Below are positions 6,940-55,753 of a stretch of 64,000 bases of DNA, piece after piece. The stretch's first letter is position 1. The number at the start of each line of letters is the position of its first letter. The position numbers and the translations under genes were made by a program. The notes under the pieces were generated by a model. The model was not told where the DNA came from. It worked only from the letters and a program-made list of their open reading frames with translations, and made no database searches. Source of the stretch: Deltaproteobacteria bacterium (GTDB lineage: Bacteria > Myxococcota_A > Polyangia > Nannocystales > Nannocystaceae); NCBI GenBank assembly GCA_016709225.1, contig JADJEE010000012.1, positions 2,243,630 to 2,307,629 of the forward strand, read 5' to 3'.

Positions 6940-8014
6940 CGTCGATGTCGACGCCGAACGAGGCAAAGATGGTCCCACAGTGCGGCTGCATCGGCGACGA
7001 GTGACACTCGACGCCGGGCCCCTCGCCGATGATTTCGAACGTCTTGGGGTCATAGATCGGCGCGAGGAAGTCCACCCCCTCGAGCGCGCGCCCGAGGTCG
7101 ACCGCGACCACACCGGTCGCGAGATCGAACCCGTCGAGGTCGACCTTCGGTGTGTTCAAGAATCCGCACGCGTCTTGGTTCTCGAGCGCGAGCTCGCCAT
7201 CCCCCGCGCAATCGGTGCTCCCGATGTGCAGGTAGCCGCCGCCCGCGACCGCCTCGGGGTCCTCCACGGAGAAGTTGAACACGAAGTGGCGGTAGCCGGT
7301 CGCCCACGACCAGTACATCTCGCCCAGCGGCGACGGAGCCGCCTCCGCGCTCGTGGTGTTGATGAGATCCTTCATCACGGCCTGCGGCACACCGACGTCG
7401 AAGCTGATCCGCGTCACGTCCGCGACCTGCGTCATGCCGGTGATCACGTCGTTCTCGCGCGCGGTGCCTTCGGCGAAGGCAATCGCGGAGGCTTCGCAAT
7501 CGCCTTCGGTGTTGCTGGTGAGATCGATGAGCGAGACCTGTCCGGCATCACTCGTGTACTGGAAGTCGTTGACGTCGAGCTCGACGGTCACCTCGCTGCC
7601 GTCGGCGGCGTACATGTGCAGGTTGCTGATGTAGAACCGCAGATCCGCTGGGCTCGCGGTGTGCTCGCCGTCGGGGCCGAGCCCGGTGATCGTGCTGCCG
7701 CAACCGACCTCTTCGCCGTTGGCGACCGCCGCGAACCGCAGGCTGAACGGCGCGAGCGCCTCGCCGGTCGTGCTTCCGCCGGAGCTGTCGAGCCCGGTCG
7801 GGTCGGTATCGCTCGTCGCCGTGGTGGCGCTGGTGGTGGTGGCGGTCGGGTCTGTCGTGGTCGTCGATGCGGTGGTCGCCGAGGTGCTCGACATCGTCGG
7901 ATCGCCGGTCGAGCCGTCGGCGTTCGTCGAAGTCTCCGCGTCGTCGCCACCGCAAGCGCCGAGGACCGCAGCAAACAAAAGGGTGGGCGCGAGTGTCCGG
8001 CAGTCCATCGTCAT
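6893..8014 (-). CDS. Four-Cys partner lipoprotein of the metallo-mystery pair (MbnP-like)
   Basis: Lipobox (LLFAAVLGACGG), long Thr-rich linker, conserved Cys/His/Met/Trp-rich domain. Immediately upstream of the di-heme peroxidase and overlapping it by 47 nt (23 nt with the 6915 start). This is the partner-then-peroxidase order seen in mbnPH-type pairs. Confidence 0.7.
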   Translation of the reverse strand: MTMDCRTLAPTLLFAAVLGACGGDDAETSTNADGSTGDPTMSSTSATTASTTTTDPTATTTSATTATSDTDPTGLDSSGGSTTGEALAPFSLRFAAVANGEEVGCGSTITGLGPDGEHTASPADLRFYISNLHMYAADGSEVTVELDVNDFQYTSDAGQVSLIDLTSNTEGDCEASAIAFAEGTARENDVITGMTQVADVTRISFDVGVPQAVMKDLINTTSAEAAPSPLGEMYWSWATGYRHFVFNFSVEDPEAVAGGGYLHIGSTDCAGDGELALENQDACGFLNTPKVDLDGFDLATGVVAVDLGRALEGVDFLAPIYDPKTFEIIGEGPGVECHSSPMQPHCGTIFASFGVDIDDGVSAADQDAVFAAQ

Positions 8015-8296
8015 GTGTCGCGACGCTAGCCAGGCCGACCGCGCGCCGCCAGCGAGAATGGGGGGGCGCGAAAATTCGCCACATGCCTGGTGCCGCGTAG
8101 GCTCGAGTCGCGCATTGGGCATCGCAGGTGTTCCGCGAGGTGTTCAAGACTTGGCCAGCGCCGCCGGAGGGTCGCGGTGGCTGCGATGCCGTCGCGAACA
8201 GCGATGCCTCCCGCGTGACAGATCCGCAACGGGCATTCTCCGCCGCGTGCGCTAACCTCGGCGGAGGTCCGCCTCCGACGGGCAGCGGGTAGGATC

Positions 8297-17342: not shown

Positions 17343-18788
17343 TCAGCGATCCCCATCCGCGAGCGATTCGCCGCCACGCCCCATCGCGACGTCGGCGGCG
17401 GCACGAACCATCGAGGTTGCCGCCGCGGGCTCGGGCGCGTGCGGTGCCTCCGTATCCTCGGGCATGTGCGGCCCGTGACGCACCTTCTCGTTCACCACCA
17501 CCAGCCACAGGGCGAAGAGCGCCAGATAGATCACCGCGAACATCACCAGCGACACCATCACCTGGTCGGCATCCACGGCGACGGAGTTGGCATCGCGCGT
17601 CCGCAGCAGTCCGTACACCACCCACGGCTGGCGACCGACCTCGGCGGCGACCCAGCCGCCCTCGTTGGCGGCGTAAGGGCCGAGCACCGCGAGCACGAAG
17701 ATCCACAACAGCCACCGCTGCTGCCACAGCACACCGCGCCACCACAGCACGCACGCCAGCGACGTGAGGCCGATGAACGCGGTGCCGAGCATCGCCATGA
17801 CGTGGTACGCGAGAAACGGGATCACGACCGGCGGGCGCTCGTCCTCGGGCACGCGATCGAGCCCGGCGACCGGCGTGTCGAAATCCTCGTGGATGAGGAA
17901 GCTGAGCATGCCGGGGATCGCGATGCCACCGCGGACCCGCTGTGCGTCGACATCGGGCCAGCCGACGAGGTACATCGGCGCACCGCCTTCGCCGGTCACG
18001 AAGTGGCCCTCGAAGGCGGCGAGCTTCGCGGGCTGGTGGCGCGCGACCATGTTGGCCTGTGCGTGCCCGGACACCAGCTCGCCCCACGACGCCAGCGTGG
18101 CGATGACGAGCCCGATCGCGAAGCTGCGCCGGGCGAAGCCGACGTGGCGCCCCCGCAGCAGGTACCACGCGCTGATGCTCATCACGAAGAAGCCACCCAG
18201 GATGAACGCGCCCAGCAGCACGTGATTGAGCCGGTGCACGGTCGAGGGGTTGAAGACCATCGCCCAGAAGTCGGTCACCTCGACGCGCGCGGCGCCATCG
18301 TGCACCACGAGGCGGTGCCCGGCCGGCGTCTGCTGCCACGAGTTGGCGATGATGATCCACACCGCGGAGAACGTGCTGCCGAGGAACACCATCACGGTCG
18401 CGAAGAAGTGCATGCGCCGCGACACGCGGTCCCAGCCGAACACCAGCACCGCGAGGAAGCCCGACTCGAGGAAGAACGCGAAGATGCCCTCGGCCGCCAG
18501 CGCCGAGCCGAACACATCGCCGACGAAGCGCGAGTAGGTGGCCCAGTTGGTGCCGAACTGGAACTCCATCACGATGCCGCTGGCGACCCCGACCGCGAAA
18601 TTGACGGCGAAGATGCGGGTCCAGAAGCGAGCCATCGCCTCGTATGCGGCGTCGCCGGTGCGCAGCGCAAAGCCCTCGATCACGACCATCACCAGCCCCA
18701 AGCCGATCGAGAGCGGCGGGAACAGGTAGTGGAACATGATCGTGAACGCGAACTGGATCCGCGACAGCAGGACGACGTCGAGATCCAC
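17343..18788 (-). CDS. cydA: Cytochrome bd-type quinol oxidase subunit I
   Basis: N-terminus [23 protein letters not shown] matches the CydA consensus (E. coli MLDIVELSRLQF...). Q-loop and 9 TM helices. GTG start with GAGGTG 7 nt upstream. Confidence 0.85.
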
Positions 18789-18798
18789 CGCGATCACC

Positions 18799-19863
18799 TC
18801 ACTTGTCGAACAGACCGTCGAGGTCCTCGCGCCGCGCACCCTTGGCGTCGCAGACCGCGAACTGGCCCCCGGGATAGAGCGCCGCGCCGCCGTAGCGACC
18901 GCCGCGATCGACCGCGTAGAAGTTGACGTTGAAGTCGGGCCGCCCATCCGCGCGCAGCAATCGCTTGGCGCGGGTGGTCTCGACGATGCGCTTGCATGCG
19001 GCCATGCACGCGTCCTTGGGGTGCTTGCCCGCGCGGATGAACTCGACCACCGTGTGACTGCCGGCGCTGACGATGTTGGCCTCGCCACGCCCGGTGCTGC
19101 CGGCCGCGCCGACGAGGTTGTCGACGAACAGACCCGCGCCGATGAGCGGCGAGTCGCCGACGCGACCGGGGATCTTGAATGCGAGCCCGCTGGTGGTGGT
19201 GACACCGCCGAGGTCGCCGTTGCGATCGACGCCGCAGCAGTTGATGGTGCCGGTGATGCCGAAGTGCGCCTTGACATCGGCGGGCACGTCCTTGCCGGTC
19301 TTGGGCAGCCAGTCGTCGCGATCGGACAGCGTCGACTTCCAGTACAGCCAGATCTCGCGCGCCTCGGGCGTGAGCAACTCCTGCTCGACGAAGCCGTGGG
19401 CGTTGGCGAACGCGCGCGCGCCCTCGCCCGACAGCAGCACGTGATCGGTGTAGCGCAGCACCGCCAGTGCGACCTGGCTGGGGTTCTTGATCCGTCGCAG
19501 CGAGCACACCGCGCCCGCCAGACCGCTCGGTCCATCCATGACCGAGGCGTCGAGCTCGACCTCGCCGTCTTCGTTGGGCAGGCCGCCGAGGCCGACGCTG
19601 TGATCGTTGGGATCGTCCTCCACCAGTGTCACGCCCTTCACCACCGCGTCGACCACCGGTGCACCGTCGAGGATCGCCTTCATCGCGGTCTCGACGCAGG
19701 CGGGATGACCGTTGGCGGAGGCGACCACGACCGGGTGCTTGGGCTTGCGCAGCACCGCCGGCGCGGCCGCACTGGCGCCGCGGCTGGGCGGCGCCATCAG
19801 GCAGCCGGAGCCGAGCACCATCGACGATCGGAGCAGGAAACCGCGGCGTCGCAATCGGGGCAT
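18799..19863 (-). CDS. Ntn-hydrolase isoaspartyl peptidase / L-asparaginase (aspartylglucosaminidase-like), Tat-exported
   Basis: Twin-arginine signal ([14 protein letters not shown]). Autoproteolytic G-T nucleophile region ([14 protein letters not shown]). Stop is 10 nt before the cydA start. Confidence 0.8.
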
Positions 19864-19894: not shown

Positions 19895-22810
<2,916 letters not shown>

Positions 22811-23084
22811 CGGGCGCAATGGACGGGCTCGAACGGCCCCCCGGGAGGGCGACGCAGCGCCCCGCCGGTACCCGATCGAATGGCCAGTCTATCAGTCGCC
22901 CCCACCGACGTCGGCGGCCCGGCCGCTCGTGGGGGCCCTGGCCGTCGACCTGCTCCGCACGCTCGCCACCCCCATCACGACCACGAAATCGCCAACCATC
23001 GACACCCCTGCGGGGTCCGGCCTACCCTCGCGCGCCGAGGCCGCGGCGACGCACGTCCCTTCCCACGGCAGAAGAGGTTCGACC

Positions 23085-24287
23085 ATGCTTGCGAAGTTTC
23101 TGACGCGCTCTGTTTTCTCGTGCATCGGGCTCACGCTCGTTGCGTCCGGTTGTGAAAAGCAGCAGACCACCCCGCCGCCCAGCGATCCGGTCGCGACCGC
23201 GCCGGCCAAGCCACCGGCGAAGCCGATCCCCGATGGCTTCTTCACGCTGACGCCGCAGCTGACCGTCAACGATGTCGACGCCGCGATCGCGTTCTACACC
23301 ACCGCGCTCGGCGCCCAGAAGCTGTTCACACTGCCCGGCGCCGACGGCAAGACGATGCACGGCGAGATCAAGATCGGCGACTCGATCGTGATGATCGACG
23401 CCGAGAACCCGCAGGGCAAGTCGCCGCTGACGCTCGGCGGCACGCCGGCGACGCTGATGGTCTATGTCGAGAAGGTCGACGAGACCTACGCGGCCGCGCT
23501 CGCAGCCGGCGCGAAGCAGGAGCAGCCGGTGCAGGATCAGTTCTGGGGCGATCGCTACGGCGAGCTCAGCGATCCGTTCGGACACCGCTGGGCGCTCGCG
23601 ACCCACGTCGAGGACCTGACGCCCGAGCAGATGCAGCAGCGCAGCGCCCTGGTGATGGCCGAGATGGCGCCGCCGGCCAAGGGCAAGAAGAAGAAGAAGG
23701 CCAAGAAGGGCGCGCCGCCGGTGTGGAAGGCGGTCGCAGGCACGCCCGCGACGCAAGCCGTGCCCGCGCCGTACCACACCGTGACCGTGGCCTACACCCT
23801 CGACAACGCTGCGGCCGCGATCGAGTTCTACAAGACCGCCCTGGGTGCACAGGAGCGCGATCGCATGGCGATGCCCGACGGTCGCATCATGCACGCCGAG
23901 ATCTCCATCGGTGACTCGTTCCTCATGCTCTCCGACGAGATGCCGGGCATGTCGAAGTCGGCCAAGACCCTCGCGGGCTCGCCGGTGGCGCTGATGCTCT
24001 ACACGCCCGACGTCGACGCCGCGATGACGACCGCGACCGGTGCCGGTGGCACCGCGGTGATGCCGGTCAGCGACATGTTCTGGGGCGATCGCTACGGCGC
24101 GATCGTGGATGTCGCGGGCTACCTGTGGGGCATCGCCACGCACAAGGAAGACCTGACGCCCGAGGAGATCGCCGAGCGGGCCAAGGCAGCGATGCCGCCG
24201 GCCGCAGCCGAGACCGCGCCCGCGCCCGCGCCCGCGGCTGCGCCCGCCGGGGCCGAGACCGCCGCCGCGCCGACGCCCGCGAGCTGA
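23085..24287 (+). CDS. Lipoprotein with two tandem VOC/glyoxalase-fold (PhnB-like) domains
   Basis: ATG 23085 with GAAGAGG RBS. Lipobox (LTLVASGC). Two repeats of the ~130-aa domain (...AIAFY.TALGAQ...GDRYG...) separated by a KGKKKKKAKKG linker. Confidence 0.8.
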   Translation: MLAKFLTRSVFSCIGLTLVASGCEKQQTTPPPSDPVATAPAKPPAKPIPDGFFTLTPQLTVNDVDAAIAFYTTALGAQKLFTLPGADGKTMHGEIKIGDSIVMIDAENPQGKSPLTLGGTPATLMVYVEKVDETYAAALAAGAKQEQPVQDQFWGDRYGELSDPFGHRWALATHVEDLTPEQMQQRSALVMAEMAPPAKGKKKKKAKKGAPPVWKAVAGTPATQAVPAPYHTVTVAYTLDNAAAAIEFYKTALGAQERDRMAMPDGRIMHAEISIGDSFLMLSDEMPGMSKSAKTLAGSPVALMLYTPDVDAAMTTATGAGGTAVMPVSDMFWGDRYGAIVDVAGYLWGIATHKEDLTPEEIAERAKAAMPPAAAETAPAPAPAAAPAGAETAAAPTPAS

Positions 24288-24456
24288 GCCCTCGCGAACT
24301 GTTCGCACGACGCCCGTGCAACTTGCCCAAGGCCCGCGTGATCCCGAGTCGATCGCGCGGGCCTTCGCGCGTGGCAGCGGAGCACGATCGCAGGAAGATC
24401 GCGTGCGGACTCCGTACCCGTGATTCGGGGCACACCGGTTGCAGTCCAGTGCGTCC

Positions 24457-25914
24457 ATGCGGAAGCGATCGATCATGGAGACCCTGTGGTGCGCATGCCT
24501 GGGACTCGTCGCGGCGGCCGGCTGCAGCGCGGCGAGCTTGCAAGGCGACGACCACGGCGGCGCGTGCCGATCGCCGGCAGGCTGCGTCGGTGACGACGCC
24601 GGCACCAGCGGTGCGAGCGGCTGGGATCCCGCCGACGACAGCAGCGACGGCAGTGGAGCCGCAACCGGCGGCGACGAGGCGACCTCGTCCGAGCCACCAC
24701 GAGGGCCGCAGCTGCCGTGCGACGTCGCGGCCGCGCTGTCGCGGGCGTGCGGCGAGTGCCACGGCGACACGCCGGCCTACGGCGCCCCGATGTCGCTGGT
24801 GGACTTCGATGACCTGCACGTGCCCGCGCCGACCGACCCCACCCGCTCGGTGTTCGATCTCGTCGGCGAGCGCATCACCGCCGACACGAAGATGATGCCA
24901 CCCGACGACGACATCACCGACGCCGAGCGGGCCGCGTTGTTGTCGTGGATCGAGGCCGGCGCACCGGCAGATCCCGACGCCCAGTGCGGCGATCTCCCGC
25001 CGCCCGACGATGGCCCCGACGTCGGCCCCGAGGCGCTGCCGTGCGAGACCAACTTCGAGGTGCGTGCACACGCGCCCGGCGGCCAGGGTGGCTTCCAGGT
25101 GCCAGCGCAGGGCGCCGACGATCTCTACCAGTGCTTCGCCTTCAAGGCGCCGTTCACCGAGCCTCGGCAGGCGGTCGCGTGGGCCCCGATCATCGACGAC
25201 GAGCGCGTCGTGCACCACTGGATCCTCTACCGCACGCCGTCACCGCAGGAGGACGGCGGTGTGTTCCCCTGCGATGTCTCGCTGCAGGTCTCGGCGGAGT
25301 TCGTCGCGGGCTGGGCCCCCGGTGGTGGCAACGTGCTGATGCCCGAGGGCGTCGGCCTCGAGCTCGGCGATCCCAACGACTGGTACGTGCTGCAGGTCCA
25401 CTACCACAACACCGCGCACCACCAGGACGCCGTCGACGCCAGCGGCGTGGCCTTCTGCATGCCGGACGAGCCGCGCCCGCAGACCGCCGGCGTGCTCACC
25501 CTCGGCACCACGAGTCTGAACATCCCCGCCGGCGCGGTTGCCCACGAGGAGACCGGCAACTGTGGCGGGCTGCTGACGCTGTTCTGGCCCGGCGACCTGC
25601 ACATCATCGGGAGCTCACCGCACATGCACGAGCTCGGCCGTGGCTTCCACACCGAGCTGGTGCGCGCCGGCGGCGTCACCGAGGTCGTCACGGACGTGCC
25701 GGTGTTCAACTTCGAGAGCCAGGGCATGTACTTCAACACGCCCGAGATCGTGGTGCACCCCGGCGAGTCCCTGCGCACTACCTGCGTCTTCGACAACCCC
25801 GGCGCCGAGATGGTGCACTTCGGTGAAGGCACCACCGACGAGATGTGCTTCAACTTCGTGCTCGCCTACCCCATCCAGCAGCTCAACAATCGCAACTGCG
25901 GGATCGTGTTCTAG
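24457..25914 (+). CDS. Secreted lipoprotein: N-terminal c-type heme motif fused to a PHM/DBH-like type-II copper monooxygenase fold
   Basis: Lipobox (LVAAAGC). CGECHGD (CxxCH). Then HHWILY, H.H and HMH...M spacing, like the CuH/CuM ligand sets of peptidylglycine monooxygenase. Confidence 0.75.
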   Translation: MRKRSIMETLWCACLGLVAAAGCSAASLQGDDHGGACRSPAGCVGDDAGTSGASGWDPADDSSDGSGAATGGDEATSSEPPRGPQLPCDVAAALSRACGECHGDTPAYGAPMSLVDFDDLHVPAPTDPTRSVFDLVGERITADTKMMPPDDDITDAERAALLSWIEAGAPADPDAQCGDLPPPDDGPDVGPEALPCETNFEVRAHAPGGQGGFQVPAQGADDLYQCFAFKAPFTEPRQAVAWAPIIDDERVVHHWILYRTPSPQEDGGVFPCDVSLQVSAEFVAGWAPGGGNVLMPEGVGLELGDPNDWYVLQVHYHNTAHHQDAVDASGVAFCMPDEPRPQTAGVLTLGTTSLNIPAGAVAHEETGNCGGLLTLFWPGDLHIIGSSPHMHELGRGFHTELVRAGGVTEVVTDVPVFNFESQGMYFNTPEIVVHPGESLRTTCVFDNPGAEMVHFGEGTTDEMCFNFVLAYPIQQLNNRNCGIVF

Positions 25915-26078
25915 TACCTCGACACAGCGATAGTGATGGGTCAGAACGCCGTCATGGCCGCGACTCCGCAAGGCGCCGTGCCGCCGGAATACCGGGCGTA
26001 TTTCAAGGTGCGGCAACGCAGCGAGGCGCGGTCAGGGCGGTGTTATGGCCCGTCACTATCGCTGTGTCGAGGTACTAG
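25911..26078. repeat. Palindromic intergenic element: 26-nt perfect inverted repeat (imperfect further in) around a ~116-nt lower-GC core. Probable bidirectional terminator or REP-like element.
   Basis: Left arm ctagtacctcgacacagcgatagtga (25911-25936). Right arm tcactatcgctgtgtcgaggtactag (26053-26078). The arms contain the TAG stop codons of both convergent flanking genes. Confidence 0.6.
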
Positions 26079-26695
26079 CCGGGTGCGGTGTTGCGGCGCA
26101 GCGGCTCGGGCAGCCACGCGTCGAGCATGCTGTGCGGCGGATCGCCCAGCGGTGTCAGCAGCAACGGGGTCCGTCGCGTCGCGATCGGCGAGGCCAGTGT
26201 GGTCTCGCCGAGCGCGAGCTCGATCCGCTTGGCGGCGCCGGCGACCAGCTCGGCGCCGCTGGGCAGCCGCGCCGGGCGACCACGCACCGCCAGCACACAC
26301 TCGATCGCCACGATGATCCGCGAGCGCTCCGAGACGGGCCACGCGCTGGGATCGTGCTCGCCCCACGGCACGAGCGCGTCCTCGATGAGCGGCAGTCGTC
26401 GCGTGACCTCCAGCTGCAGTGACTCGCCCGGTGGCAGAGCGCAGGCGGTCGGCCACACCGGCATCGCCGTCGCCGCGGCCCACGGCGCGGGCCGAAAGCG
26501 CCCTGCGCCCACGACGATGCAATCGTCGCCACCGTGCTGGCAGTGCCACCAAGCCCGAGTGCCGGTGGGATCGAGCAGCATGGGATGGATCGGCGCACGC
26601 GTGTCGTTGCGCAGCACGATCGCGAGTTCGAGGCGATCACCGCGCACACGTGCGTCGACCCGGAGCGGCACCGAGGTTGCGACGACGATCGTCAT
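26075..26695 (-). CDS. Hypothetical protein (second candidate immunity gene of the PAAR array)
   Basis: 206 aa. ATGA stop/start overlap with the upstream ORF. Protein-like composition. No signal peptide. Confidence 0.45.
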   Translation of the reverse strand: MTIVVATSVPLRVDARVRGDRLELAIVLRNDTRAPIHPMLLDPTGTRAWWHCQHGGDDCIVVGAGRFRPAPWAAATAMPVWPTACALPPGESLQLEVTRRLPLIEDALVPWGEHDPSAWPVSERSRIIVAIECVLAVRGRPARLPSGAELVAGAAKRIELALGETTLASPIATRRTPLLLTPLGDPPHSMLDAWLPEPLRRNTAPG

Positions 26696-27291
26696 GGACT
26701 CCGCGACCGCAGTCGACGCAGCTCAACCGGCAAGAGATGATCGACGGTGCTCATGATCCCGCGCGGCAGCGGATCGGGAAGCACCGCGCGCGCGATCGTG
26801 CTGGGCGCGGGCAGCTCGGCCCACGCCCACGCGGCGATCACCGGCTCGACCAGCCCGATGCCATGGCTGTCGGTGCGCGCGTCGTGGGTGGCCGCGACCG
26901 CAGCGACCGGCACGACCTGCACGCCGGCCAGCACCCGCAACACCGGCACGCGCTCGACTTCGAGGGCGGCGGCGCGGGCGATGGCGGTCTCGGTGAGGCG
27001 ACGCCCGAGCGAGAGCGTGCGCTGCCAGCCGCGCTCGGGATCGATGCGTTCGCCGCGGGGCAGGATCGGCGCCGCCGACAGCAAGCCGTCCGGCACGCGC
27101 ACCTGACCGAACCACACCAGGGCGCCATCGTTGCCGATCGACTGCACCACCGGACGCGCGCGGGGGCCTTGGCAGTCGCGAACCAACGCGAAGCAGCTGT
27201 CCTCGATCCGCAGCCGCAGGCTCAGCCGCAGCTCGCCGCGATCGATCGCGATCGCAGCGTCGAGTCGGTGGCGAGGGCTGGCTGCGTTCAT
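26692..27291 (-). CDS. Hypothetical protein (first candidate immunity gene directly downstream of the PAAR-toxin gene)
   Basis: 199 aa. Start is 14 nt after the toxin stop. No family recognised. Confidence 0.45.
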   Translation of the reverse strand: MNAASPRHRLDAAIAIDRGELRLSLRLRIEDSCFALVRDCQGPRARPVVQSIGNDGALVWFGQVRVPDGLLSAAPILPRGERIDPERGWQRTLSLGRRLTETAIARAAALEVERVPVLRVLAGVQVVPVAAVAATHDARTDSHGIGLVEPVIAAWAWAELPAPSTIARAVLPDPLPRGIMSTVDHLLPVELRRLRSRSP

Positions 27292-27304
27292 GGCTCGCGC
27301 TCGC

Positions 27305-28696
27305 TCACGGGAACGGCGACGTATAGGTGGTGCGGGTCGGCAGGCCGGTCTCGGTGCGGTAGCTGTTCTCGGCGGCGACCGTCGAGTACTCCTCGTGGTT
27401 CACCCACCGGCTGTCCCAGCCATGCTCGGAGTTGGTCGCGAGCTGGCGACTCGCACCCTCGGAGTGGTTCGCCGCGTGGTTCATCTCGTGGAAGAGAATC
27501 GCGTCCGAGCTGGTGCCCGGCGCGGGATGGGCGTGGCCGCCGGCGGCCCACGGATTGGCGGGGTGGTTGGCCCAGTTCGAGGGCATGTGCTCGACGGTGG
27601 TCGGCGCCCCCGGCATGCGCAGGCCCGTCGGCGTGTCCATGAACGCGTCCCAGTTGCCGTGATGATCGGCGACGGCGTTGAGCGGGCCGTTCGCGCCGTG
27701 GTACGGCACGATCGTCACCGGCTTGCCCGCGCGTTCGATCCGCTCGAGCGCCTCGCGACCGGCCCGCGTCCGCGCCATGCGTTCGAGATCGCGGGTGACG
27801 TCGTCGGCCCAGCCGGTCGGCGCACCGTGGGGGCTCACGTGCACGTGCTGCAAGTTGCGCACGTAGCGAGCCGCGGTCAGGCGCCGGAACACCGAGCCGC
27901 CCACGCGGAACAACGCCTTGAAGCCCTGGGCGATCGCGAGGCTGAACAGCGACGGGAACGGGATACCGCCGACCACCACGTTCGCCGAGCCCGGGCCGAC
28001 CGTGGTGCCGATCATCGGCCCCATCGGCGGATCGCTGGGCTTCGGCGACGAGAAGGTGCAGTGCTTGGTGATGTCGACCGCGAGCCGAGCCGCGCGCGCG
28101 CCCTCGATCCACACCGACGACGAGCCCAGGAAGATCTCGAACATCGGGAAGTAGCCACCGCACCAGATGCCGAGGCCCATGTCGCCGCAGCGGGCGGCCG
28201 CGCGAGCGTTGACCATGACCGTCGAAGCGCCCGAGAGGATCGGAATCGGGATGATCGGGCCCATGCTCGGCAGCGGGATCGGCACGGGATTGGGCGGCGT
28301 CAGGTTGGGCGGGTGGTTGTGCGCGTGGGGTAGCCCGACGTCGAGGTCCCACATGCGCAACGCCGGGAACGCAGGGAACGCAGGCAGGCCGAGCGCGTCG
28401 GCGATCTGGCCCATGGTCTGGGTGATCGCCATCTCGACGTGGATCGCCGCCTGCACGCCCGCGGCCAGGGTCGCGAGCACACCACCACCACCGCCGGCGT
28501 GACCATCGGCGCCCGCCGGGCCACCGGCCTCGCCGCCGCCGGAATCGGCGTGGCCCGACGCGCGGCCGGCCGCAGCGACCGTGACCCCGCCGGCACCCGA
28601 TCGACCGGCGTTGACCGTCGCGCGCTCGCCCCACTGCGAGTACAGCTCGGCGGCACGCGAGAAGCGGATGTTCGACAGATGATCGAGCACGCCCAT
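27305..28696 (-). CDS. PAAR-like (DUF4150) protein with a C-terminal HExxH domain (putative T6SS-delivered toxin)
   Basis: ATG 28696 with GGAG RBS. Two PAAR-type motifs (NARAAARCGDMG, GARAARLAVDITKHC). Pro-rich linker. C-terminal HEMNHAANH. Confidence 0.7.
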   Translation of the reverse strand: MGVLDHLSNIRFSRAAELYSQWGERATVNAGRSGAGGVTVAAAGRASGHADSGGGEAGGPAGADGHAGGGGGVLATLAAGVQAAIHVEMAITQTMGQIADALGLPAFPAFPALRMWDLDVGLPHAHNHPPNLTPPNPVPIPLPSMGPIIPIPILSGASTVMVNARAAARCGDMGLGIWCGGYFPMFEIFLGSSSVWIEGARAARLAVDITKHCTFSSPKPSDPPMGPMIGTTVGPGSANVVVGGIPFPSLFSLAIAQGFKALFRVGGSVFRRLTAARYVRNLQHVHVSPHGAPTGWADDVTRDLERMARTRAGREALERIERAGKPVTIVPYHGANGPLNAVADHHGNWDAFMDTPTGLRMPGAPTTVEHMPSNWANHPANPWAAGGHAHPAPGTSSDAILFHEMNHAANHSEGASRQLATNSEHGWDSRWVNHEEYSTVAAENSYRTETGLPTRTTYTSPFP

Positions 28697-28698
28697 GG

Positions 28699-30531
28699 CT
28701 ACGGCTCCTCGCTCGGCGGCGCGATCGCCCCGTGTCGGCGTGCGGACTCGATCTCGCGCTTCTTGGCGGCACCCATGCCGAGCTTGTCGAACACCCGCGC
28801 CTTGCGCTGGAGGATGTCGGCGCGCGAGCTGTCGGCGGCATCGCCGAAGGTCTCGGGGACCGCGTTGCAGCAGGCCAGCGCGCGATCGAACTCGACCACG
28901 GCGTCGACGCGACGCCCGGCCTTGGCGTGCGACTCGGCGATCCACGTGCGCGCGTACGCTTCGGCGAGGTGGTTGCGCATGTTGGCGTAGTACTTGGCCG
29001 CGATCGTGTAGCGCTCGATCGCTCGATCGCAGGCGCCGACCATGAAGTCGCAGTGACCGATGCCGGTCATGCCACTGGCCGCGAGCACGGCGTGGTCGTG
29101 CTCGACCGCGACCTCGACGCAGCGGGCGTACGCCTCCATCGCCTTGTCGAACGCGGCGCAGTGGTACAGCGCGCCGCCCATCCCGTACCACGCGCTGGCG
29201 ATCTCGATCGGCTCCTCGGTCGCGTGCGCGAGCTCGAGGCTCTCGATCTGCAGGGCCATGCCGCGCTCGGGATCGCCATTGTGCATGCGATAGGCGGCCA
29301 GCGCCGAGAGGCACCGCAGTCGTTCGATGGTCGGCAGCTCAGGCTGGGCGAGCTTGTCGGTCAGGCCCTTCTCGATCACTGGACCGTCGATGCGAAAGTC
29401 GAGGGTTCGCATCACCGCGCGCAAGGGCGCGCCAGCGAGGCGCTCGACGCCGGTGGCAACGGCGCACACACGGACCTTCGCGCTCACCAGTACACGGGCG
29501 AGTCGCGCCAGCGAGGCGAGGAACTCCTGCTGCTCGCCCGGTGGCACCTCGTCGTCGATCGCAGCGGCGAGCACGACGATGAGCTCCTGCTCGGGGTCGA
29601 GCACGGTGCGTTGCACCCGGAGCAACAGCTGCGCGAAATGGACCTCGGCACCGTGGCGCCCGATCGGAGCGGCGATCTCCGCCAACAGTGCAGCGGTGCG
29701 ATCACCTCGACCCACGCGCTCGGCGTGGGCGTGGACCTGGCGCACGACCGCCTCGGCGACGCGACCATAGAAGTGAATCGGCCGCCAGAACCTGACCTCC
29801 TCGGCATGGACGACCAGCGCGCGGTTGGCCAGCCCGGCCTCGATCAACGCCGAGACCAGCCACGCCTGCCCGCGGCGCGGCGCGTCATAGACCAGCATGC
29901 GCGGCAGCGGATCGATCATGGCGTGGCGGATCGTCGCGCCGATGGCCGCCGCGTCGCCCTGCCGCAGCGCGACCACGCGCGGCCGCGCGACCTCGACGTC
30001 GCGCACGATGCCCGCACTCGGCTCGACCATCAGCAGCAGCTTGAAGCGACCGCTCTCGGTCGCCTCGGTGATCCGGCCGAGCGTCGCTGCGAGCTCGAGC
30101 GAGCGCGCGTCCTCGCGATCGATCGACAGCACCATCACCACGCCCTCGACGAAGGGGTCGAACGCGAGCGCCGATTGCTCGGCGTACTCGGCCAGCAGCT
30201 GCTCGATCGTGCGACCGCGGGAGCCCGCACGCGGATCGAACGGTGGCGGCGGCTCGATCGTGATCTCGGCCGCGGCGGCCTCGCGCACGGCGGCATCGAC
30301 TGCCGCGGCGATTGCCTCGCCGATCGCCGCGCAGTACGACGCGCCATCGACGAAGCGATCGTCCATCGCCGCCCACAGCCGCCGACCATCGTCGGCGAGC
30401 CCGGCGAGCAGCTTCGCCGCCGCGGCCCGCTGATCCGCTGCGGCGCGCAGCTCGAGCACCACCGCGTCGGGCTCGGCGAGGAACCCGTGGATGGCAGTGA
30501 TGCGCGACTGCACGTACTCGGCGAGCGGCAT
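28699..30531 (-). CDS. Large (610 aa) cytoplasmic alpha-helical protein with a TPR-like C-terminus, hypothetical. Possible adaptor/chaperone of the downstream PAAR protein.
   Basis: ATG 30531. Ends 2 nt before the PAAR-gene start. No signal peptide. No catalytic motif recognised. Confidence 0.6.
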   Translation of the reverse strand: MPLAEYVQSRITAIHGFLAEPDAVVLELRAAADQRAAAAKLLAGLADDGRRLWAAMDDRFVDGASYCAAIGEAIAAAVDAAVREAAAAEITIEPPPPFDPRAGSRGRTIEQLLAEYAEQSALAFDPFVEGVVMVLSIDREDARSLELAATLGRITEATESGRFKLLLMVEPSAGIVRDVEVARPRVVALRQGDAAAIGATIRHAMIDPLPRMLVYDAPRRGQAWLVSALIEAGLANRALVVHAEEVRFWRPIHFYGRVAEAVVRQVHAHAERVGRGDRTAALLAEIAAPIGRHGAEVHFAQLLLRVQRTVLDPEQELIVVLAAAIDDEVPPGEQQEFLASLARLARVLVSAKVRVCAVATGVERLAGAPLRAVMRTLDFRIDGPVIEKGLTDKLAQPELPTIERLRCLSALAAYRMHNGDPERGMALQIESLELAHATEEPIEIASAWYGMGGALYHCAAFDKAMEAYARCVEVAVEHDHAVLAASGMTGIGHCDFMVGACDRAIERYTIAAKYYANMRNHLAEAYARTWIAESHAKAGRRVDAVVEFDRALACCNAVPETFGDAADSSRADILQRKARVFDKLGMGAAKKREIESARRHGAIAPPSEEP

Positions 30532-34557: not shown

Positions 34558-37500
34558 TCACGGCCGCACGAGCGTCGCGAGCCACGCGTCGATCTCGGCG
34601 CGCTCGGGCGCGGCCGGATCGTAGAGCGCTTGCGCGGCACGGGCGAGCTCGTCCACGTCGGATCGCGAGCCGCCGCTGGCCCAGGTCGCCTCGGCGAGTC
34701 GGCGGCGTGCGGTCGCGCGCTGATCGGCCGACGCACCGCCGCGATCGAGACGCTCCTGCGCCTCACGAGCCGTGGCAAGGGCCGCGTCGGCGTCGCCCAG
34801 CTGCAGCTGCGCGGTGCACAGATCGAGCAGGACCGCGCCGAGGTCGGGATGATCGGGCTGCGTCTTTGCCAGCAAAGTCCGAGCGCGCTCGAAATGGGCG
34901 AGCGCCGCGGCCGGGCGCCCGAACGCGAGCTCGTCGTTGCCCAGGCCCACGAGGATGGGCGGCAGCAAGGTGTGCGCGGGGCCCAGCTTCTCCTCGATGA
35001 TCGCGAGCGCCCGCCGGTGATGTGCGAGCGCGTCGTCGAGGCGACCCAACGCTCGTTCGGCGTCGCCGAGGTTGCCGAGGGCGTTGGCCAGCTCGGGATG
35101 GTCCGGCCCGAGCGCGCGCTCGAAGATCGCCACGGCGCGCTCGAGCTGCCGCGCGGCGTCGGCCGGCCGCTTCGCACTGCGCGTGACGACGCCCAGATTG
35201 GTGAGGCTCTGCGCAACGCGGGGATGATCGGGCCCGAAGGCGGCCTCGTTGACCGCGAGCACGCGCGCCATCAATGCGGCAGCCTGCTCGAGATCGCCGC
35301 GACGCCAGTACACCTCGGCCTCGTTCGACAGCGCGTTGGCGACGTCAGGGTGATCCTCGCCGAAGGTGGCGACGAAGATCGCTCGCGCCTGCTCGTAGCT
35401 CGCGAGCGCATCGTCGAGGCGGCCGAGATCGACGAGCGTGGTGCCGAGGTTGTTGAGCGACAACGCCACGTCGGGGTGCTCGGGACCAAGCCGCTCGCGG
35501 AGGATCGCGAGTGCACGCGTGTGATGGGCGAGCGCATCGTCGAGGCGGCCGAGATCGCGGGCCATCACGCCGAGCTCGTTGTGCATCCGCGCACCGCGGA
35601 GGTCACCCTCCTCGCCGAGTCGCTCGACCAGCGACTCGGCCCAGCGCGCCCACAGCTGGCCTTCGGCGGGCCGCACCAGTCGCAGCGCGACGACCACCGC
35701 GAGGCGGCGCGCCGCATCGGCCGCCTCGGCATCCTCGCCCAGCTCGACGGCGGCGAGCACCGCCTGGGTCAGCTCGCGCTCGGCATCCTCGTGACGGCCG
35801 ACCCTCTCGAGCAGTGCCCCGACACGCGCGCGGCTGCGGACGATGAGCGCCGGATCACCGTGCGCCTCGGCGTCGGCGAGCAAGCCCTCGGCCATCGCGA
35901 GCGCGGGTTCGGCACGGCCTGCCGCCTGCAGCGCATCGACGCGGACGAGCTGCCGTTCGATCGCGAGATCGCTCGCATCGCGCTCGGCCGGGGCATGACG
36001 AACCACCCAACCGACGTCCTGGCAGCGCTCGACCGGGGGCAGCTCGGCCGCGAGCAGCAGTGCCTTGCCGACGAACTTCCGGTCGGCCTCACGCGCGACC
36101 TCGAGAAGCGCCGCGAGCGACTCGGCCTCGAGGTCCAGACAGTCGCGCATTCCGGCGACGATCGCAGGGGGCTGCGTGCCGTCCAGCCCCGCACGGCACG
36201 CATCGACGCGCGCGGCGGACCAGCGTGCGGCATAGTCGTCGATGGCGGGCGAGAACTTCGCGATCGTCGGGGTCGCAAACGGCACCTCGGTGGTGCGCAT
36301 CGCGGTCTCGACCTCGGCACGGATGCGATCGTCCCAGTGCTCGTCGATGGCATCGCCCTCGCGATCGCAACCTGCGAGCGCGCGCACGTGGGCGATCCGC
36401 CACGCCGCCGCGCCGCCGCCGGCGAGCGCGAGCAACCCACCCACCGCCAACCAACGTCGACGGCGCTGTCGCGGATCGCGGGCGAGGGCAGCGAGCAGCG
36501 CATCGAGATCTTCGAAGCGGTCGGCCGGCGCCAGGGCAAGCCCGCGATCGAGCACCCGGCGTACGAACGTGGGAACGCCAGTCGCGAGCTTCGGTTCGAC
36601 ACGTCGGCCCGAGAGCACCGCGGCCGCCAGTTCGGGCAGCGAACGCGCGGCGAACGGACGACTGCCGTACACGCCCTCCCACAGCGCCACGCAGAAGCTG
36701 AACTGATCCGAGCGGGGATCGATCGGCATGCTCTGGAACTGCTCGGGGGACATATACGCTGGCGTACCCACCGTCGTGCCGGTGCGCGTCAGATCGGTGG
36801 CGAGCGCGTCGGTGCGCGGCCGCGGCCCGTCGCTCGTGATCTCGTCGACGTGCTGCACCCGCACGAGCCCGAAGTCCATGACGAGCACGCGACCGTCGTC
36901 GCCGACCATCACGTTGTCGGGCTTGAAGTCGCGATGCACGAGCCCCTTGCGATGCGCGGCCGCGAGTCCGCGTCCGGCCTGCATCATGACGGCGATCACC
37001 TCGCTCCACGTGCGCGGACTCGCCTGCAGCCACTGCCGGAGCGTCACGCCCTGCACCAGCTCCATCGCGAGAAACACCTGGCCCTCGTGCGTGCCGACGT
37101 CATGCACGGCGATGACATTGGGGTGGCTCACCCGCGCCATCGCCTGGGCCTCGCGCAGCAGTCGATCGTCGACGCCGGGGCTGGCGGCCGCCTGGTCCTC
37201 GTCGCCGAAGAGCCGATGCATGAGCCGCCCCAGCACGCGGGCCTCGCCGAGCTCCGCATGCAGTCGATGCAGCAGTTTGAGCGCGACCCGGCGGTCGAGC
37301 TCGGGATCGTACGCCGCATAGACGGTCCCCATGCCGCCCGCACCGAGCCGATCGAGCACCACGTAGCGACCGATCGTCTGGCCGCGCGCGAAGCCCTCGC
37401 CGCGTGGGCGGGCACCGGTGCCGTCGGCCGGCCCCGAGCCTTTGGTCGTCTCGGTCTCGCCGCTCACATGCTTCCGCCCGCTTCGCGCTGCCCGCTGGCT

Positions 37501-37638
37501 GTCGTCGGGCGCTCGGCAACCTGTGCGGGACGCCGGTCGCTCGAGCGTACCAGGGTTGTACGCGGCCGCGGCACCAACCCCACCGCGCCGCCGCTCCCCA
37601 CGGCGCATCGCACGGATCGGCTCGCGCCATCGAGCCAC
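34558..37638 (-). CDS. Ser/Thr protein kinase with a long C-terminal TPR array (paralogue of 19895-22810)
   Basis: GAGGMGTVY, VALK, HRDFKPDN, DFG, SPE. About 45-aa insert after the catalytic Lys. About 600 aa of TPR. The start is uncertain (non-ATG in the track; next in-frame ATG at 37608). Confidence 0.85.
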   Translation of the reverse strand: MARWREPIRAMRRGERRRGGVGAAAAYNPGTLERPASRTGCRAPDDSQRAARSGRKHVSGETETTKGSGPADGTGARPRGEGFARGQTIGRYVVLDRLGAGGMGTVYAAYDPELDRRVALKLLHRLHAELGEARVLGRLMHRLFGDEDQAAASPGVDDRLLREAQAMARVSHPNVIAVHDVGTHEGQVFLAMELVQGVTLRQWLQASPRTWSEVIAVMMQAGRGLAAAHRKGLVHRDFKPDNVMVGDDGRVLVMDFGLVRVQHVDEITSDGPRPRTDALATDLTRTGTTVGTPAYMSPEQFQSMPIDPRSDQFSFCVALWEGVYGSRPFAARSLPELAAAVLSGRRVEPKLATGVPTFVRRVLDRGLALAPADRFEDLDALLAALARDPRQRRRRWLAVGGLLALAGGGAAAWRIAHVRALAGCDREGDAIDEHWDDRIRAEVETAMRTTEVPFATPTIAKFSPAIDDYAARWSAARVDACRAGLDGTQPPAIVAGMRDCLDLEAESLAALLEVAREADRKFVGKALLLAAELPPVERCQDVGWVVRHAPAERDASDLAIERQLVRVDALQAAGRAEPALAMAEGLLADAEAHGDPALIVRSRARVGALLERVGRHEDAERELTQAVLAAVELGEDAEAADAARRLAVVVALRLVRPAEGQLWARWAESLVERLGEEGDLRGARMHNELGVMARDLGRLDDALAHHTRALAILRERLGPEHPDVALSLNNLGTTLVDLGRLDDALASYEQARAIFVATFGEDHPDVANALSNEAEVYWRRGDLEQAAALMARVLAVNEAAFGPDHPRVAQSLTNLGVVTRSAKRPADAARQLERAVAIFERALGPDHPELANALGNLGDAERALGRLDDALAHHRRALAIIEEKLGPAHTLLPPILVGLGNDELAFGRPAAALAHFERARTLLAKTQPDHPDLGAVLLDLCTAQLQLGDADAALATAREAQERLDRGGASADQRATARRRLAEATWASGGSRSDVDELARAAQALYDPAAPERAEIDAWLATLVRP

Positions 37639-37706: not shown

Positions 37707-38168
37707 ATGCGCAAGGTGACGCCGTTTCTGATGTTCGACGACCAGCTCGAAGCCGCGATGGCGTTCTACACCGCCACGTTCCCGGACTCCGAGATCAAGA
37801 ACGTCGCGCGCACCGGCGCAGATGGGCCGGTCAGTTCCGCGGAGTTCGTCGTCGGTGGTCAGGCGTTCATGGGCTACAACGGCGGGCCGTACTTTTCGTT
37901 CTCGGAGGGTTTCTCGCTGTACGTCGACTGCGAGGACCAGGCCGAGGTCGATGCGTACTGGAACAAGCTCGTCGAGGCCGGCGCCACGCCGACCCAGTGT
38001 GGTTGGATCAAGGACCCGTTCGGCGTCACCTGGCAGATCGTGCCGCGGCGCTTCACCGAGCTCATCCGCGACGCAGACCGGAAGAAGGTCAAGGCCGTAA
38101 TGGACGCGATGTTGACCATGGTGAAGCTCGACGTCGCGGCGCTCGAGCGCGCCTACGACGAGGCGTAG
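37707..38168 (+). CDS. PhnB-like VOC-family protein (3-demethylubiquinone-9 3-methyltransferase-like domain)
   Basis: 153 aa. MRKVTPFLMFDDQ...A..FY...F consensus of the PhnB/glyoxalase fold. Confidence 0.8.
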   Translation: MRKVTPFLMFDDQLEAAMAFYTATFPDSEIKNVARTGADGPVSSAEFVVGGQAFMGYNGGPYFSFSEGFSLYVDCEDQAEVDAYWNKLVEAGATPTQCGWIKDPFGVTWQIVPRRFTELIRDADRKKVKAVMDAMLTMVKLDVAALERAYDEA

Positions 38169-38250
38169 CCCGCCGCACCGAACCGGCCTCGATGACGTGG
38201 GTCACCCTTCATCCGGGAACCCGCGGGCGCGCCGGTGGTCGTTGGTCCCG

Positions 38251-55590: not shown

Positions 55591-55753
55591 CGTCGCATCC
55601 CCCACGCAGGTCTTCACCCGCGTTGCCGTCGGTAACTCGGCGCCCGCGCGGATTACAGCTGGGGTGCGCAGCGCGTCGGTCTACGCACCGAGGTGCAGCA
55701 CCCCGCAAAGAAGTCAGAGGCGGGCAAGGGGTGCTGCTACGCTCGCGACCTTC

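What the first reader, a model, noticed from the sequence alone, without database searches (positions are those of the whole stretch)
24457..25914. Heme c motif fused to a PHM/DBH-like copper monooxygenase fold in a lipoprotein
CGECHGD, a CxxCH covalent heme site, is followed ~150 aa later by HHWILY...H.H...HMH...M spacing. That spacing mirrors the two mononuclear Cu sites of peptidylglycine alpha-hydroxylating monooxygenase. A built-in cytochrome domain could be the electron donor to the Cu sites in place of ascorbate. That would make it a self-sufficient periplasmic monooxygenase. I do not know of a characterised bacterial example.
Basis: partly seen in the sequence, partly recalled or inferred. 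Interest (0 to 1): 0.65.

Follow-up and report, generated by a model that had tools for sequence, protein, structure and literature searches.

The report
Haem-c-fused bacterial PHM/DBH-type copper monooxygenase
This gene encodes a membrane-tethered periplasmic protein in which a small c-type cytochrome is fused to a copper hydroxylase of the kind that makes noradrenaline and amidated peptides in animals; it belongs to a very large, uncharacterised family of myxobacterial enzymes that probably draw electrons from a built-in haem rather than from vitamin C.

Summary
Window 24457-25914 (+) encodes a 485-aa lipoprotein with four parts: a signal peptide with lipobox Cys23, a disordered acidic linker, a roughly 90-aa c-type cytochrome module (C98-G-E-C-H102, distal Met147), and a complete PHM/DBH catalytic core. 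Both Pfam copper-monooxygenase domains score above their curated thresholds. Human DBH (E 5e-24) and rat PHM (E 5e-19) are the best solved relatives, and the predicted fold superposes on PHM (TM 0.74). All six copper ligands align with those of PHM: H253/H254/H315 and H389/H391/M463. The fusion is not chance. In a 241-protein alignment spanning two clades about 30% identical to each other, 232 proteins keep all ten haem and copper residues. About 1,200 clusters (50% identity) match at E<=1e-30. Nearly all named loci are Myxococcota, with 2-6 paralogues per genome. One relative carries four tandem cytochrome modules. The PHM residues that hold peptidyl-glycine (R240, N316, Y318) are replaced, so this is not a peptide-amidating enzyme; the substrate is unknown. 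The likely mechanism is electron flow from haem c to CuH to CuM, followed by O2-dependent hydroxylation. That step is inferred, not shown. "Self-sufficient" overstates it, because the haem still needs an upstream reductant. No characterised example was found in ten literature searches. I rate it a new variant of a known kind.

The parts
24457..24525 (+). Signal peptide with lipobox (MRKRSIMETLWCACLGLVAAAG|C23); Sec-type, with no twin-arginine motif
   Evidence: Read directly from the sequence. Cys23 is conserved in 226 of 241 relatives. An alternative start is the TTG at 24439.
24526..24708 (+). Disordered Gly/Ser/Ala/Asp-rich tether (residues 24-84) containing a small C37...C43 pair
   Evidence: pLDDT is below 50 for residues 24-73. 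Composition is G13 S10 A10 D9 of 61 residues. Length and sequence vary between relatives.
24709..24984 (+). c-type cytochrome module (residues 85-176): haem attachment at C98-G-E-C101-H102 (nt 24748-24762) and candidate distal ligand M147 in PMPP (nt 24895-24897)
24985..25041 (+). Short Pro/Asp-rich interdomain segment (residues 177-195) beginning with the clade-invariant C177
   Evidence: C88 and C177 are invariant in clade 1 and absent in clade 2; a disulphide between them is inferred only.
25042..25461 (+). CuH (electron-entry) beta-sandwich domain, Pfam Cu2_monooxygen. Ligands H253, H254 (nt 25213-25218) and H315 (nt 25399-25401). Y224 and Q313 correspond to PHM Y79 and Q170.
   Evidence: PF01082 E 7.5e-15, 55.7 bits against a cut-off of 30. 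Alignment to PHM and DBH is; conservation is.
25483..25899 (+). CuM (O2- and substrate-binding) beta-sandwich domain, Pfam Cu2_monoox_C. Ligands H389, H391 (nt 25621-25629) and M463 (nt 25843-25845). Family signature HMH...DEMCFNF.
   Evidence: PF03712 E 2.8e-17, 63.1 bits against a cut-off of 23. Alignment is; conservation is. The disulphide partners C443-C464 and C369-C481 correspond to PHM C293-C315 and C227-C334.
19895..22819 (-). Divergently transcribed Ser/Thr kinase with TPR repeats (974 aa); a conserved neighbour and possible regulator, not shown to be functionally linked
   Evidence: Pkinase plus TPR_12. The same arrangement occurs in L001, L002, L007-L010, L013-L017 and L081.
23094..24287 (+). 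Upstream same-strand lipoprotein with two glyoxalase/VOC domains; a neighbour only in the closest orthologues
   Evidence: PF00903 in two copies. It is conserved in L001, L002 and L084 only. An enoyl-CoA hydratase gene or other genes take its place elsewhere.

Best explanation
The gene encodes a Sec-exported lipoprotein held on a flexible acidic tether in the periplasm. Its mature part is a natural fusion of a mono-haem c-type cytochrome (His102/Met147 axial ligands) to a two-copper monooxygenase core of the PHM/DBH/tyramine-beta-monooxygenase family. The proposed working cycle runs as follows. A periplasmic one-electron donor (a soluble cytochrome, or the bc1 or another respiratory complex) reduces the haem. 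The haem passes single electrons to the adjacent CuH site (H253/H254/H315). CuH passes them on to CuM (H389/H391/M463). Reduced CuM binds O2 and hydroxylates a C-H bond of a bound substrate. Two haem-delivered electrons are used per turnover, where the animal enzymes use two ascorbates. The substrate is not a C-terminal glycine peptide. The pocket is lined by Phe, Ser or Trp where PHM has Arg240, Asn316 and Tyr318, which suggests a hydrophobic or aromatic, non-carboxylate substrate. Shown here: the domain architecture, conservation of the ligands, the two folds and the export signal. Inferred: haem and copper occupancy, the direction and path of electron flow, and the chemistry.
Against: There is no biochemical evidence for haem, copper or catalysis. 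The distance and orientation between the haem site and CuH could not be measured, because no model coordinates or PAE were available. The cytochrome module stays below Pfam's gathering score (19.7-23.9 bits against 27). Foldseek matches of the isolated domain are not significant (E >= 1.3). Genomic context gives no hint of the substrate or of the upstream reductant. Whether a typical high-potential His/Met haem c can reduce CuM during turnover is unknown.
Confidence: 0.65

Rival explanations
1. Reverse electron flow. The copper core oxidises a substrate as an oxidase or dehydrogenase, and the haem c domain carries the electrons away to the respiratory chain, as in cytochrome-fused periplasmic dehydrogenases.
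Against: The CuM site keeps the His2Met set that characterises O2-activating PHM/DBH enzymes. Y224 and Q313, the equivalents of the PHM residues Y79 and Q170 implicated in inward electron transfer, are also conserved. No member of this fold is known to act as a dehydrogenase (my own knowledge).
Confidence: 0.1
2. The copper core works as in animals with a small-molecule reductant. The cytochrome module has another role, such as redox or O2/NO sensing, protection against peroxide, docking to a partner, or a purely structural function.
For: Electron transfer between the domains is not demonstrated. The domain is a divergent cytochrome below Pfam thresholds.
Against: The haem residues and copper ligands are co-conserved almost without exception across clades about 30% identical. 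The tetra-cytochrome variant is hard to explain other than as a wire. Bacteria are not generally known to make ascorbate (my own knowledge).
Confidence: 0.1
3. It is a true bacterial peptidylglycine alpha-hydroxylating monooxygenase, performing the first step of peptide C-terminal amidation on a RiPP or lipoprotein.
For: Significant similarity to PHM over the whole catalytic core.
Against: The PHM residues that hold the glycine carboxylate and backbone are all replaced: R240 becomes S, F or W and is never R; Y318 becomes F in 238 of 241; N316 becomes F, Y or L. There is no PAL/NHL domain in the protein or in annotated neighbours, and no precursor-peptide or RiPP genes nearby. DBH is the better match.
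Confidence: 0.03
4. It is a non-catalytic PHM-fold protein, for example a binding module or copper store, that happens to carry a cytochrome.
For: Rare relatives have degenerate copper sites: P0060 (H253R/H254Q/M463R) and P0076 (H315Y).
Against: All six ligands are kept in at least 239 of 241 proteins. Such purifying selection on two separate mononuclear sites is the signature of the catalytic family.
Confidence: 0.03

Closest known systems
Dopamine beta-hydroxylase / tyramine beta-monooxygenase / MOXD-type DBH-like proteins (DOMON + Cu2_monooxygen + Cu2_monoox_C)
   Same: This is the best sequence and fold match: 4zel E 5e-24, 28% identity, Foldseek 1e-21. It has the same six copper ligands and an extra domain N-terminal to the CuH domain. 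A chytrid DBH-like protein (P0329) shares the HMH and MCFNF signatures at 30% identity.
   Different: The N-terminal domain is a covalent haem-c cytochrome rather than DOMON. The protein is a bacterial lipoprotein with no dimerisation domain. Ascorbate is presumably not the reductant. The substrate is unknown.
[quoted passage not shown]
   Same: Two-beta-sandwich catalytic core (TM 0.74, rmsd about 3.1 A), the CuH His3 and CuM His2Met sites, Y79 and Q170 equivalents, and three of the five disulphides.
   Different: The substrate-anchoring residues R240, N316 and Y318 are not conserved. There is no PAL partner. A fused cytochrome is present. Identity is only about 23%.
c-type cytochrome domains that reduce LPMOs (CjX183 of Cellvibrio Cbp2D; TtX183A, PDB 8q1v)
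   Same: A small bacterial extracytoplasmic c-type cytochrome supplies single electrons to a mononuclear copper oxygenase in place of ascorbate, as shown experimentally for CjX183 (PMC8981238). TtX183A appears among the weak structural neighbours.
   Different: In that system the cytochrome and the copper enzyme are separate proteins and the copper enzyme has the unrelated LPMO fold. Here the two are one polypeptide with a PHM/DBH core.
Cytochrome-c-fused three-domain copper nitrite reductases, and the cytochrome domain of cellobiose dehydrogenase (my own knowledge, not tested here)
   Same: The design principle is shared: a haem domain tethered to or fused with a copper enzyme as a built-in one-electron donor.
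   Different: The copper folds are unrelated (cupredoxin trimer; LPMO) and so is the chemistry. CDH uses haem b.
FoxE / PccH-type mono- and di-haem c cytochromes
   Different: They are stand-alone electron carriers or iron oxidases, not fused to a copper monooxygenase. Sequence identity is 14-28%.

Membership tests
Type II copper monooxygenases (PHM/DBH/TbM; Pfam PF01082 + PF03712) | Both catalytic-core domains detected above the curated thresholds | tested here: met
   PF01082 scores 55.7 bits (cut-off 30) and PF03712 scores 63.1 bits (cut-off 23).
Type II copper monooxygenases (PHM/DBH/TbM; Pfam PF01082 + PF03712) | CuH site: three His (PHM H107, H108, H172) | tested here: met
   H253, H254 and H315 align to them and are kept in at least 239 of 241 relatives.
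Type II copper monooxygenases (PHM/DBH/TbM; Pfam PF01082 + PF03712) | CuM site: two His plus one Met (PHM H242, H244, M314) | tested here: met
   H389, H391 and M463 align to them. The two His are kept in 241 of 241 and the Met in 238 of 241.
Type II copper monooxygenases (PHM/DBH/TbM; Pfam PF01082 + PF03712) | Pair of beta-sandwich domains with the PHM topology | tested here: met
   The AF2 model has pLDDT 84.7. Foldseek gives DBH E 1e-21 and PHM TM (target) 0.74 at rmsd 3.0-3.3 A. Inter-ligand geometry was not measured because no coordinates were available.
Type II copper monooxygenases (PHM/DBH/TbM; Pfam PF01082 + PF03712) | Binds two Cu and hydroxylates C-H with O2 | not testable with these tools
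   Needs purified protein, metal analysis and an activity assay.
Type II copper monooxygenases (PHM/DBH/TbM; Pfam PF01082 + PF03712) | Ascorbate as the physiological reductant | not testable with these tools
   The fused cytochrome argues for a different donor, but this is inference.
PHM sensu stricto (peptidylglycine alpha-hydroxylase) | Residues binding the glycine carboxylate and backbone: R240, Y318, N316 | tested here: not met
   The equivalents are S387, F467 and F465. Across the family the R240 position is S, F or W and never R, and F467 is kept in 238 of 241.
PHM sensu stricto (peptidylglycine alpha-hydroxylase) | Partner lyase (PAL, NHL-repeat domain) fused or adjacent | tested here: not met
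   No such domain occurs in the protein or in the Pfam-scanned neighbours.
DBH/MOXD-type | N-terminal DOMON domain | tested here: not met
   No DOMON match in the query; a cytochrome module occupies that position. DOMON is present in the chytrid relative P0329.
c-type cytochrome (class I-like, PF13442/PF00034 clan) | CxxCH haem-attachment motif, conserved | tested here: met
   C98-x-x-C101-H102 is kept in 237 of 241 relatives; the rest are truncated.
c-type cytochrome (class I-like, PF13442/PF00034 clan) | Distal axial ligand (Met) at the expected position | tested here: met
   Invariant M147 (PMPP) aligns with the axial Met of cytochrome c6 (3dr0) and is kept in 238 of 241.
c-type cytochrome (class I-like, PF13442/PF00034 clan) | Significant match to a curated cytochrome c model | tested here: inconclusive
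   All 28 members tested match PF13442 (best E 4e-6), but scores of 19.7-23.9 bits are below the gathering score of 27. The profile against PDB cytochrome c6 gives E 9.4e-5.
c-type cytochrome (class I-like, PF13442/PF00034 clan) | Cytochrome c fold | tested here: met
c-type cytochrome (class I-like, PF13442/PF00034 clan) | Covalently bound haem in the mature protein | not testable with these tools
   Needs haem staining or a pyridine haemochrome assay.
Bacterial lipoprotein | Signal peptide ending in a lipobox with an invariant Cys | tested here: met
   MRKRS... LVAAAG|C23. The Cys is conserved in 226 of 241. No dedicated predictor was available.

The most novel reading that the evidence does not exclude
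These proteins are the first ascorbate-independent members of the PHM/DBH enzyme class. They would be periplasmic copper C-H hydroxylases wired through a covalently fused haem c (in some relatives a four-haem wire) to the respiratory electron pool. They have expanded into thousands of lineage-specific paralogues in Myxococcota. In this reading the haem module is the functional counterpart of the enigmatic DOMON domain of DBH-like enzymes. That would imply that the N-terminal domain of this enzyme class is ancestrally an electron-entry module. It would also offer a spectroscopically addressable system for the long-debated CuH-to-CuM electron-transfer step.
Probability: 0.5. Interest if true: 0.72.

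Novelty: new variant of a known kind. Interest (0 to 1): 0.6.

Why it matters
PHM, DBH and tyramine beta-monooxygenase are textbook copper enzymes. Two things about them remain open: how electrons enter at CuH, and how they cross the solvent-filled gap of about 11 A to CuM. All characterised members are eukaryotic and depend on ascorbate. A bacterial homologue with a covalently attached haem next to the CuH domain would supply a built-in, optically visible, one-electron donor. Intramolecular electron transfer could then be triggered and timed directly.

The finding also defines a very large uncharacterised enzyme family: about 1,200 clusters at 50% identity match at E<=1e-30, there are 2-6 copies per genome, and nearly all carry the name 'hypothetical protein'. 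Its unknown substrates may be relevant to myxobacterial predation, signalling or polymer breakdown. It extends the emerging theme of cytochromes feeding copper oxygenases outside the cytoplasm (CDH with LPMO, X183 with LPMO, cytochrome-fused NirK). The parallel between a cytochrome c domain in bacteria and a DOMON domain in fungi and animals at the same position gives a testable idea for the unexplained DOMON domain of DBH.

Tried and rejected
1. Peptide-amidating PHM orthologue: rejected, because the R240/N316/Y318 equivalents are not conserved and no PAL is present.

2. Chance CxxCH: rejected. The motif appears in 1.8% of shuffles, but it is conserved in 237 of 241 relatives.

3. Conserved operon partner that might reveal the substrate or reductant: none found. 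I clustered ORFs from 80 loci and inspected Pfam-annotated contexts. Only a divergent STK-TPR kinase recurs, and the VOC lipoprotein is kept only in the nearest orthologues.

4. Other copies in the window: tblastn finds only the query itself.

5. NCBIfam: no match.

7. AFDB50 fold search: the library was unavailable.

8. Profile search with the cytochrome module alone to find other fusion partners: it returned only six short fragments and was uninformative.

9. Promoter and terminator scans of 22700-26200: nothing found.

10. Ten full-text literature searches: no paper describes a bacterial cytochrome c-PHM/DBH fusion. PMC12912966 and PMC9240420 were opened and proved irrelevant to it. Subscription-only literature is not covered.

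11. Haem-to-CuH distance: could not be measured, because model coordinates and PAE are not exposed.

Full report
**1. The observation**

The region 24439/24457-25914 (+) is a single ORF. Its third-position GC of 0.91 is typical of real genes in this roughly 70% GC window. From the ATG at 24457 it encodes 485 residues.

- CGECH at residues 98-102 (nt 24748-24762)
- HHWILY from residue 253
- HYH at 315-317
- HMH at 389-391
- Met463 within DEMC

The N-terminus (MRKRSIMETLWCACLGLVAAAG|C23) is a Sec-type signal peptide with a lipobox. A CxxCH motif arises in 1.8% of shuffles of this protein. The motif alone would therefore be weak evidence; its conservation, described below, is what counts.

**2. 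The copper core**

Pfam detects both halves of the PHM/DBH catalytic core above the curated cut-offs. PF01082 covers residues 215-322 (E 7.5e-15) and PF03712 covers residues 343-481 (E 2.8e-17). NCBIfam has no model for it.

Against all PDB sequences, the only significant relatives are human dopamine beta-hydroxylase (4zel, E 5e-24) and rat PHM (E about 5e-19).

In those alignments H253/H254/H315 fall on the CuH ligands H107/H108/H172 of PHM. H389/H391/M463 fall on the CuM ligands H242/H244/M314. Y224 and Q313 match PHM Y79 and Q170. Three PHM disulphides have conserved counterparts: C226-C272, C443-C464 and C369-C481.

An AlphaFold2 model built on a 57-sequence alignment has mean pLDDT 84.7 and pTM 0.77. 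It is disordered only at residues 24-73. Foldseek against the PDB returns DBH (E 1e-21), then about 30 PHM entries (TM normalised to target 0.69-0.76, rmsd about 3 A), and nothing else of significance.

Membership of the type II copper monooxygenase family is therefore met on every feature testable in silico.

**3. The cytochrome module**

Residues 85-176 give only a sub-threshold Pfam match on the full protein (PF13442, 19.7 bits against 27). Four further results support a real cytochrome:
- A profile of this segment from 28 relatives (A2) matches cytochrome c6 (3dr0) end to end at E 9.4e-5. The CxxCH motifs are superposed, and the invariant Met147 of the PMPP motif lies on the axial Met of c6.
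- All 28 members tested match PF13442 individually, with a best E of 4e-6.
- The domain modelled alone is confident (pLDDT 93).

Foldseek also lists cytochromes first, but not significantly.

I conclude that this is a divergent mono-haem His/Met c-type cytochrome. Covalent haem attachment itself cannot be shown computationally.

**4. The fusion is ancient, abundant and under selection**

The window protein has 780 relatives in the word-indexed search. Of the best 120, 118 have one CxxCH at the same place and the other two are truncated.

A genome scan returned 80 loci. Essentially all carry a Myxococcota-type label: Nannocystaceae, Polyangiaceae, Sandaracinaceae, Bradymonadia, or the older 'Deltaproteobacteria'. 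A few are generically labelled proteobacterial MAGs. There are 2-6 paralogues per MAG.

The motif set persists down to 29-30% identity (L078, L080). Searching from that distant member revealed a second clade of more than 3,000 clusters of about 400-aa proteins with the same architecture. A few of these carry the source name 'mono/diheme cytochrome c family protein'.

In a joint alignment of 241 proteins, 232 keep all of C98, C101, H102, M147, H253, H254, H315, H389, H391 and M463. Six of the exceptions are fragments. Three carry point substitutions: P0060, P0076 and P0226.

An exhaustive profile search of 1.84 billion representatives found 14,525 matches at E<=1e-3, 7,471 at E<=1e-10 and 1,235 at E<=1e-30. 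Of the best 149 new representatives, 130 show the fusion and most of the rest are N-terminally truncated.

Three informative variants turned up:
- P0334 has four tandem copies of the same cytochrome module in front of the core.
- P0321 has a CX3CH motif.
- The chytrid protein P0329 (KAJ3307889.1, Blyttiomyces) has DOMON domains in the corresponding position. It shares 30% identity with the query core, including the HMH and MCFNF signatures.

**5. What it is not**

The three PHM residues that hold the C-terminal glycine of the substrate are replaced. R240 corresponds to S387; family-wide this position is S, F or W and never R. N316 corresponds to F465. Y318 corresponds to F467, which is kept in 238 of 241.

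There is no PAL domain or gene, no RiPP-like neighbourhood and no DOMON domain. It should therefore not be filed as a PHM or a DBH orthologue. It is a separate bacterial branch of the same enzyme family, somewhat closer to DBH-like proteins.

**6. Context**

Upstream on the same strand lies a lipoprotein with two VOC/glyoxalase domains (23094-24287). Beyond it is a divergently transcribed Ser/Thr kinase with TPR repeats (19895-22819). Downstream genes are convergent: two unknown small proteins and a PAAR-Peptidase_M91 toxin.

Across 80 related loci no operon partner is conserved. The VOC gene accompanies only the nearest orthologues. Elsewhere an enoyl-CoA hydratase gene or unknown genes occupy that slot.

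The STK-TPR kinase is retained divergently upstream throughout the orthologous subgroup (L001, L002, L007-L010, L013-L017, L081), and a kinase also sits there in the distant L082. Kinases are very abundant in these genomes, so I treat this as a lead and not as evidence of function.

The lack of a dedicated redox partner gene fits an enzyme that carries its own.

**7. Mechanism proposed**

Established by the analyses above:
- export signal and lipobox
- a cytochrome c module with His/Met ligands
- a complete CuH and CuM ligand set
- the PHM fold
- strong co-conservation of haem and copper residues
- modular multiplication of the haem module in one relative

Inferred: after Sec export and lipidation, haem is attached in the periplasm and copper is loaded there. 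A periplasmic one-electron carrier reduces the haem. The haem reduces CuH in the adjacent N-terminal sandwich, and CuH reduces CuM. CuM activates O2 and hydroxylates a substrate C-H bond. Two haem-delivered electrons per turnover take the place of the two ascorbates used by PHM and DBH (family mechanism from established knowledge).

The one-electron nature of haem c matches the one-electron reduction steps of these copper sites. A small c-type cytochrome has been shown experimentally to replace ascorbate in reducing and activating another class of copper monooxygenase, the LPMOs (PMC8981238).

'Self-sufficient' is too strong, because the protein is a relay plus catalyst and still needs an upstream donor. 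The substrate is unknown. The Phe/Ser/Trp-lined pocket and the expansion into paralogues suggest hydrophobic or aromatic, non-carboxylate substrates with diversified specificity.

**8. Rivals**

- Reverse flow, with the core acting as an oxidase or dehydrogenase that feeds the respiratory chain, cannot be excluded by sequence. It is disfavoured by the intact O2-activating His2Met site.
- A non-redox role for the cytochrome is disfavoured by the co-conservation and by the tetra-haem variant.
- A true amidating PHM is rejected by the substrate-site test.
- A non-catalytic protein is rejected by ligand conservation.

**9. Novelty and limits**

Ten full-text searches of the open-access corpus and bioRxiv found no description of a bacterial cytochrome c-PHM/DBH fusion or of any characterised bacterial member. 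The PDB holds only animal structures of this family. Database names for relatives are 'hypothetical protein' or generic domain labels. Subscription-only literature was not searchable.

The components and the design principle are each known, but this combination is uncharacterised. I therefore rate it a new variant of a known kind.

All cofactor and activity statements await biochemistry.

Noticed in passing
window 5590-8122 (-): An MbnH-like di-haem cytochrome c peroxidase (PF03150, E 7e-39; 5590-7113) overlaps or abuts an MbnP gene (PF20243, E 6.5e-28; 6896-8122). This is a second periplasmic haem-plus-copper system, 16 kb from the finding.
   Followed up: no
window 19895-22819 (-) and 34558-37638 (-): Two large Ser/Thr kinase-TPR genes are each divergently transcribed from a VOC/PhnB-type gene followed by a secreted or unknown protein. 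The first is kinase, then VOC lipoprotein, then the cyt c-PHM gene. The second is kinase, then a PF06983 protein (37707-38168), then a 759-aa unknown (38197-40476). The kinase-PHM adjacency is conserved in at least 12 related loci.
   Followed up: partly
window 53992-55617 (-): Another lipoprotein (LAGC lipobox, Gly/Ser/Asp linker) has two CxxCH motifs (CKQCH, CIQCH). Its C-terminal cytochrome module ends in LMPP and weakly resembles the module of the finding (PF13442 E 5.7e-5; hhalign E 9.5e-4). The remaining roughly 400 aa have no Pfam match.
   Followed up: partly
window 26075-29314 (-): A PAAR-motif plus Peptidase_M91 polymorphic toxin (27305-29314) is followed by two small genes with no family match (26692-27291 and 26075-26695), which are possibly immunity proteins. 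All are convergent with the finding.
   Followed up: no
P0334 (metagenomic relative, 728 aa): Four tandem copies of the same cytochrome module (CLPCH, CSLCH, CGLCH, CQTCH) precede the PHM core, forming a putative tetra-haem wire. Here PF13442 is above threshold (E 8.7e-20).
   Followed up: partly
P0329 = KAJ3307889.1, Blyttiomyces sp. (chytrid fungus): A tandem DOMON-DBH-like protein ranks among the best 150 matches to the bacterial profile (322 bits). It shares the HMH and MCFNF signatures with the bacterial family at 30% identity. This raises the question of the evolutionary relation between the bacterial and eukaryotic branches.
   Followed up: partly
P0060, P0076, P0226, P0321 (relatives): Rare degenerate or variant members exist. 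P0060 has lost CuH and CuM ligands (H253R/H254Q/M463R) but keeps the haem motif. P0076 has H315Y. P0226 has M147T. P0321 has a CX3CH motif (CAGTCH) instead of CxxCH.
   Followed up: no
L017 (4361-6280 and 5899-7383), L068 (2341-3684 and 5857-7374), and overall: Paralogues are sometimes adjacent, and there are 2-6 copies per MAG (for example six loci from CAYXVR01 and five copies in DATDJP01). This indicates repeated duplication within Nannocystaceae and Polyangiaceae.
   Followed up: partly
window 17343-19535 (-): A cytochrome bd oxidase subunit I (PF01654, E 1e-163) is called as a 730-aa ORF with about 250 extra N-terminal residues. This is probably an over-extended start.
   Followed up: no
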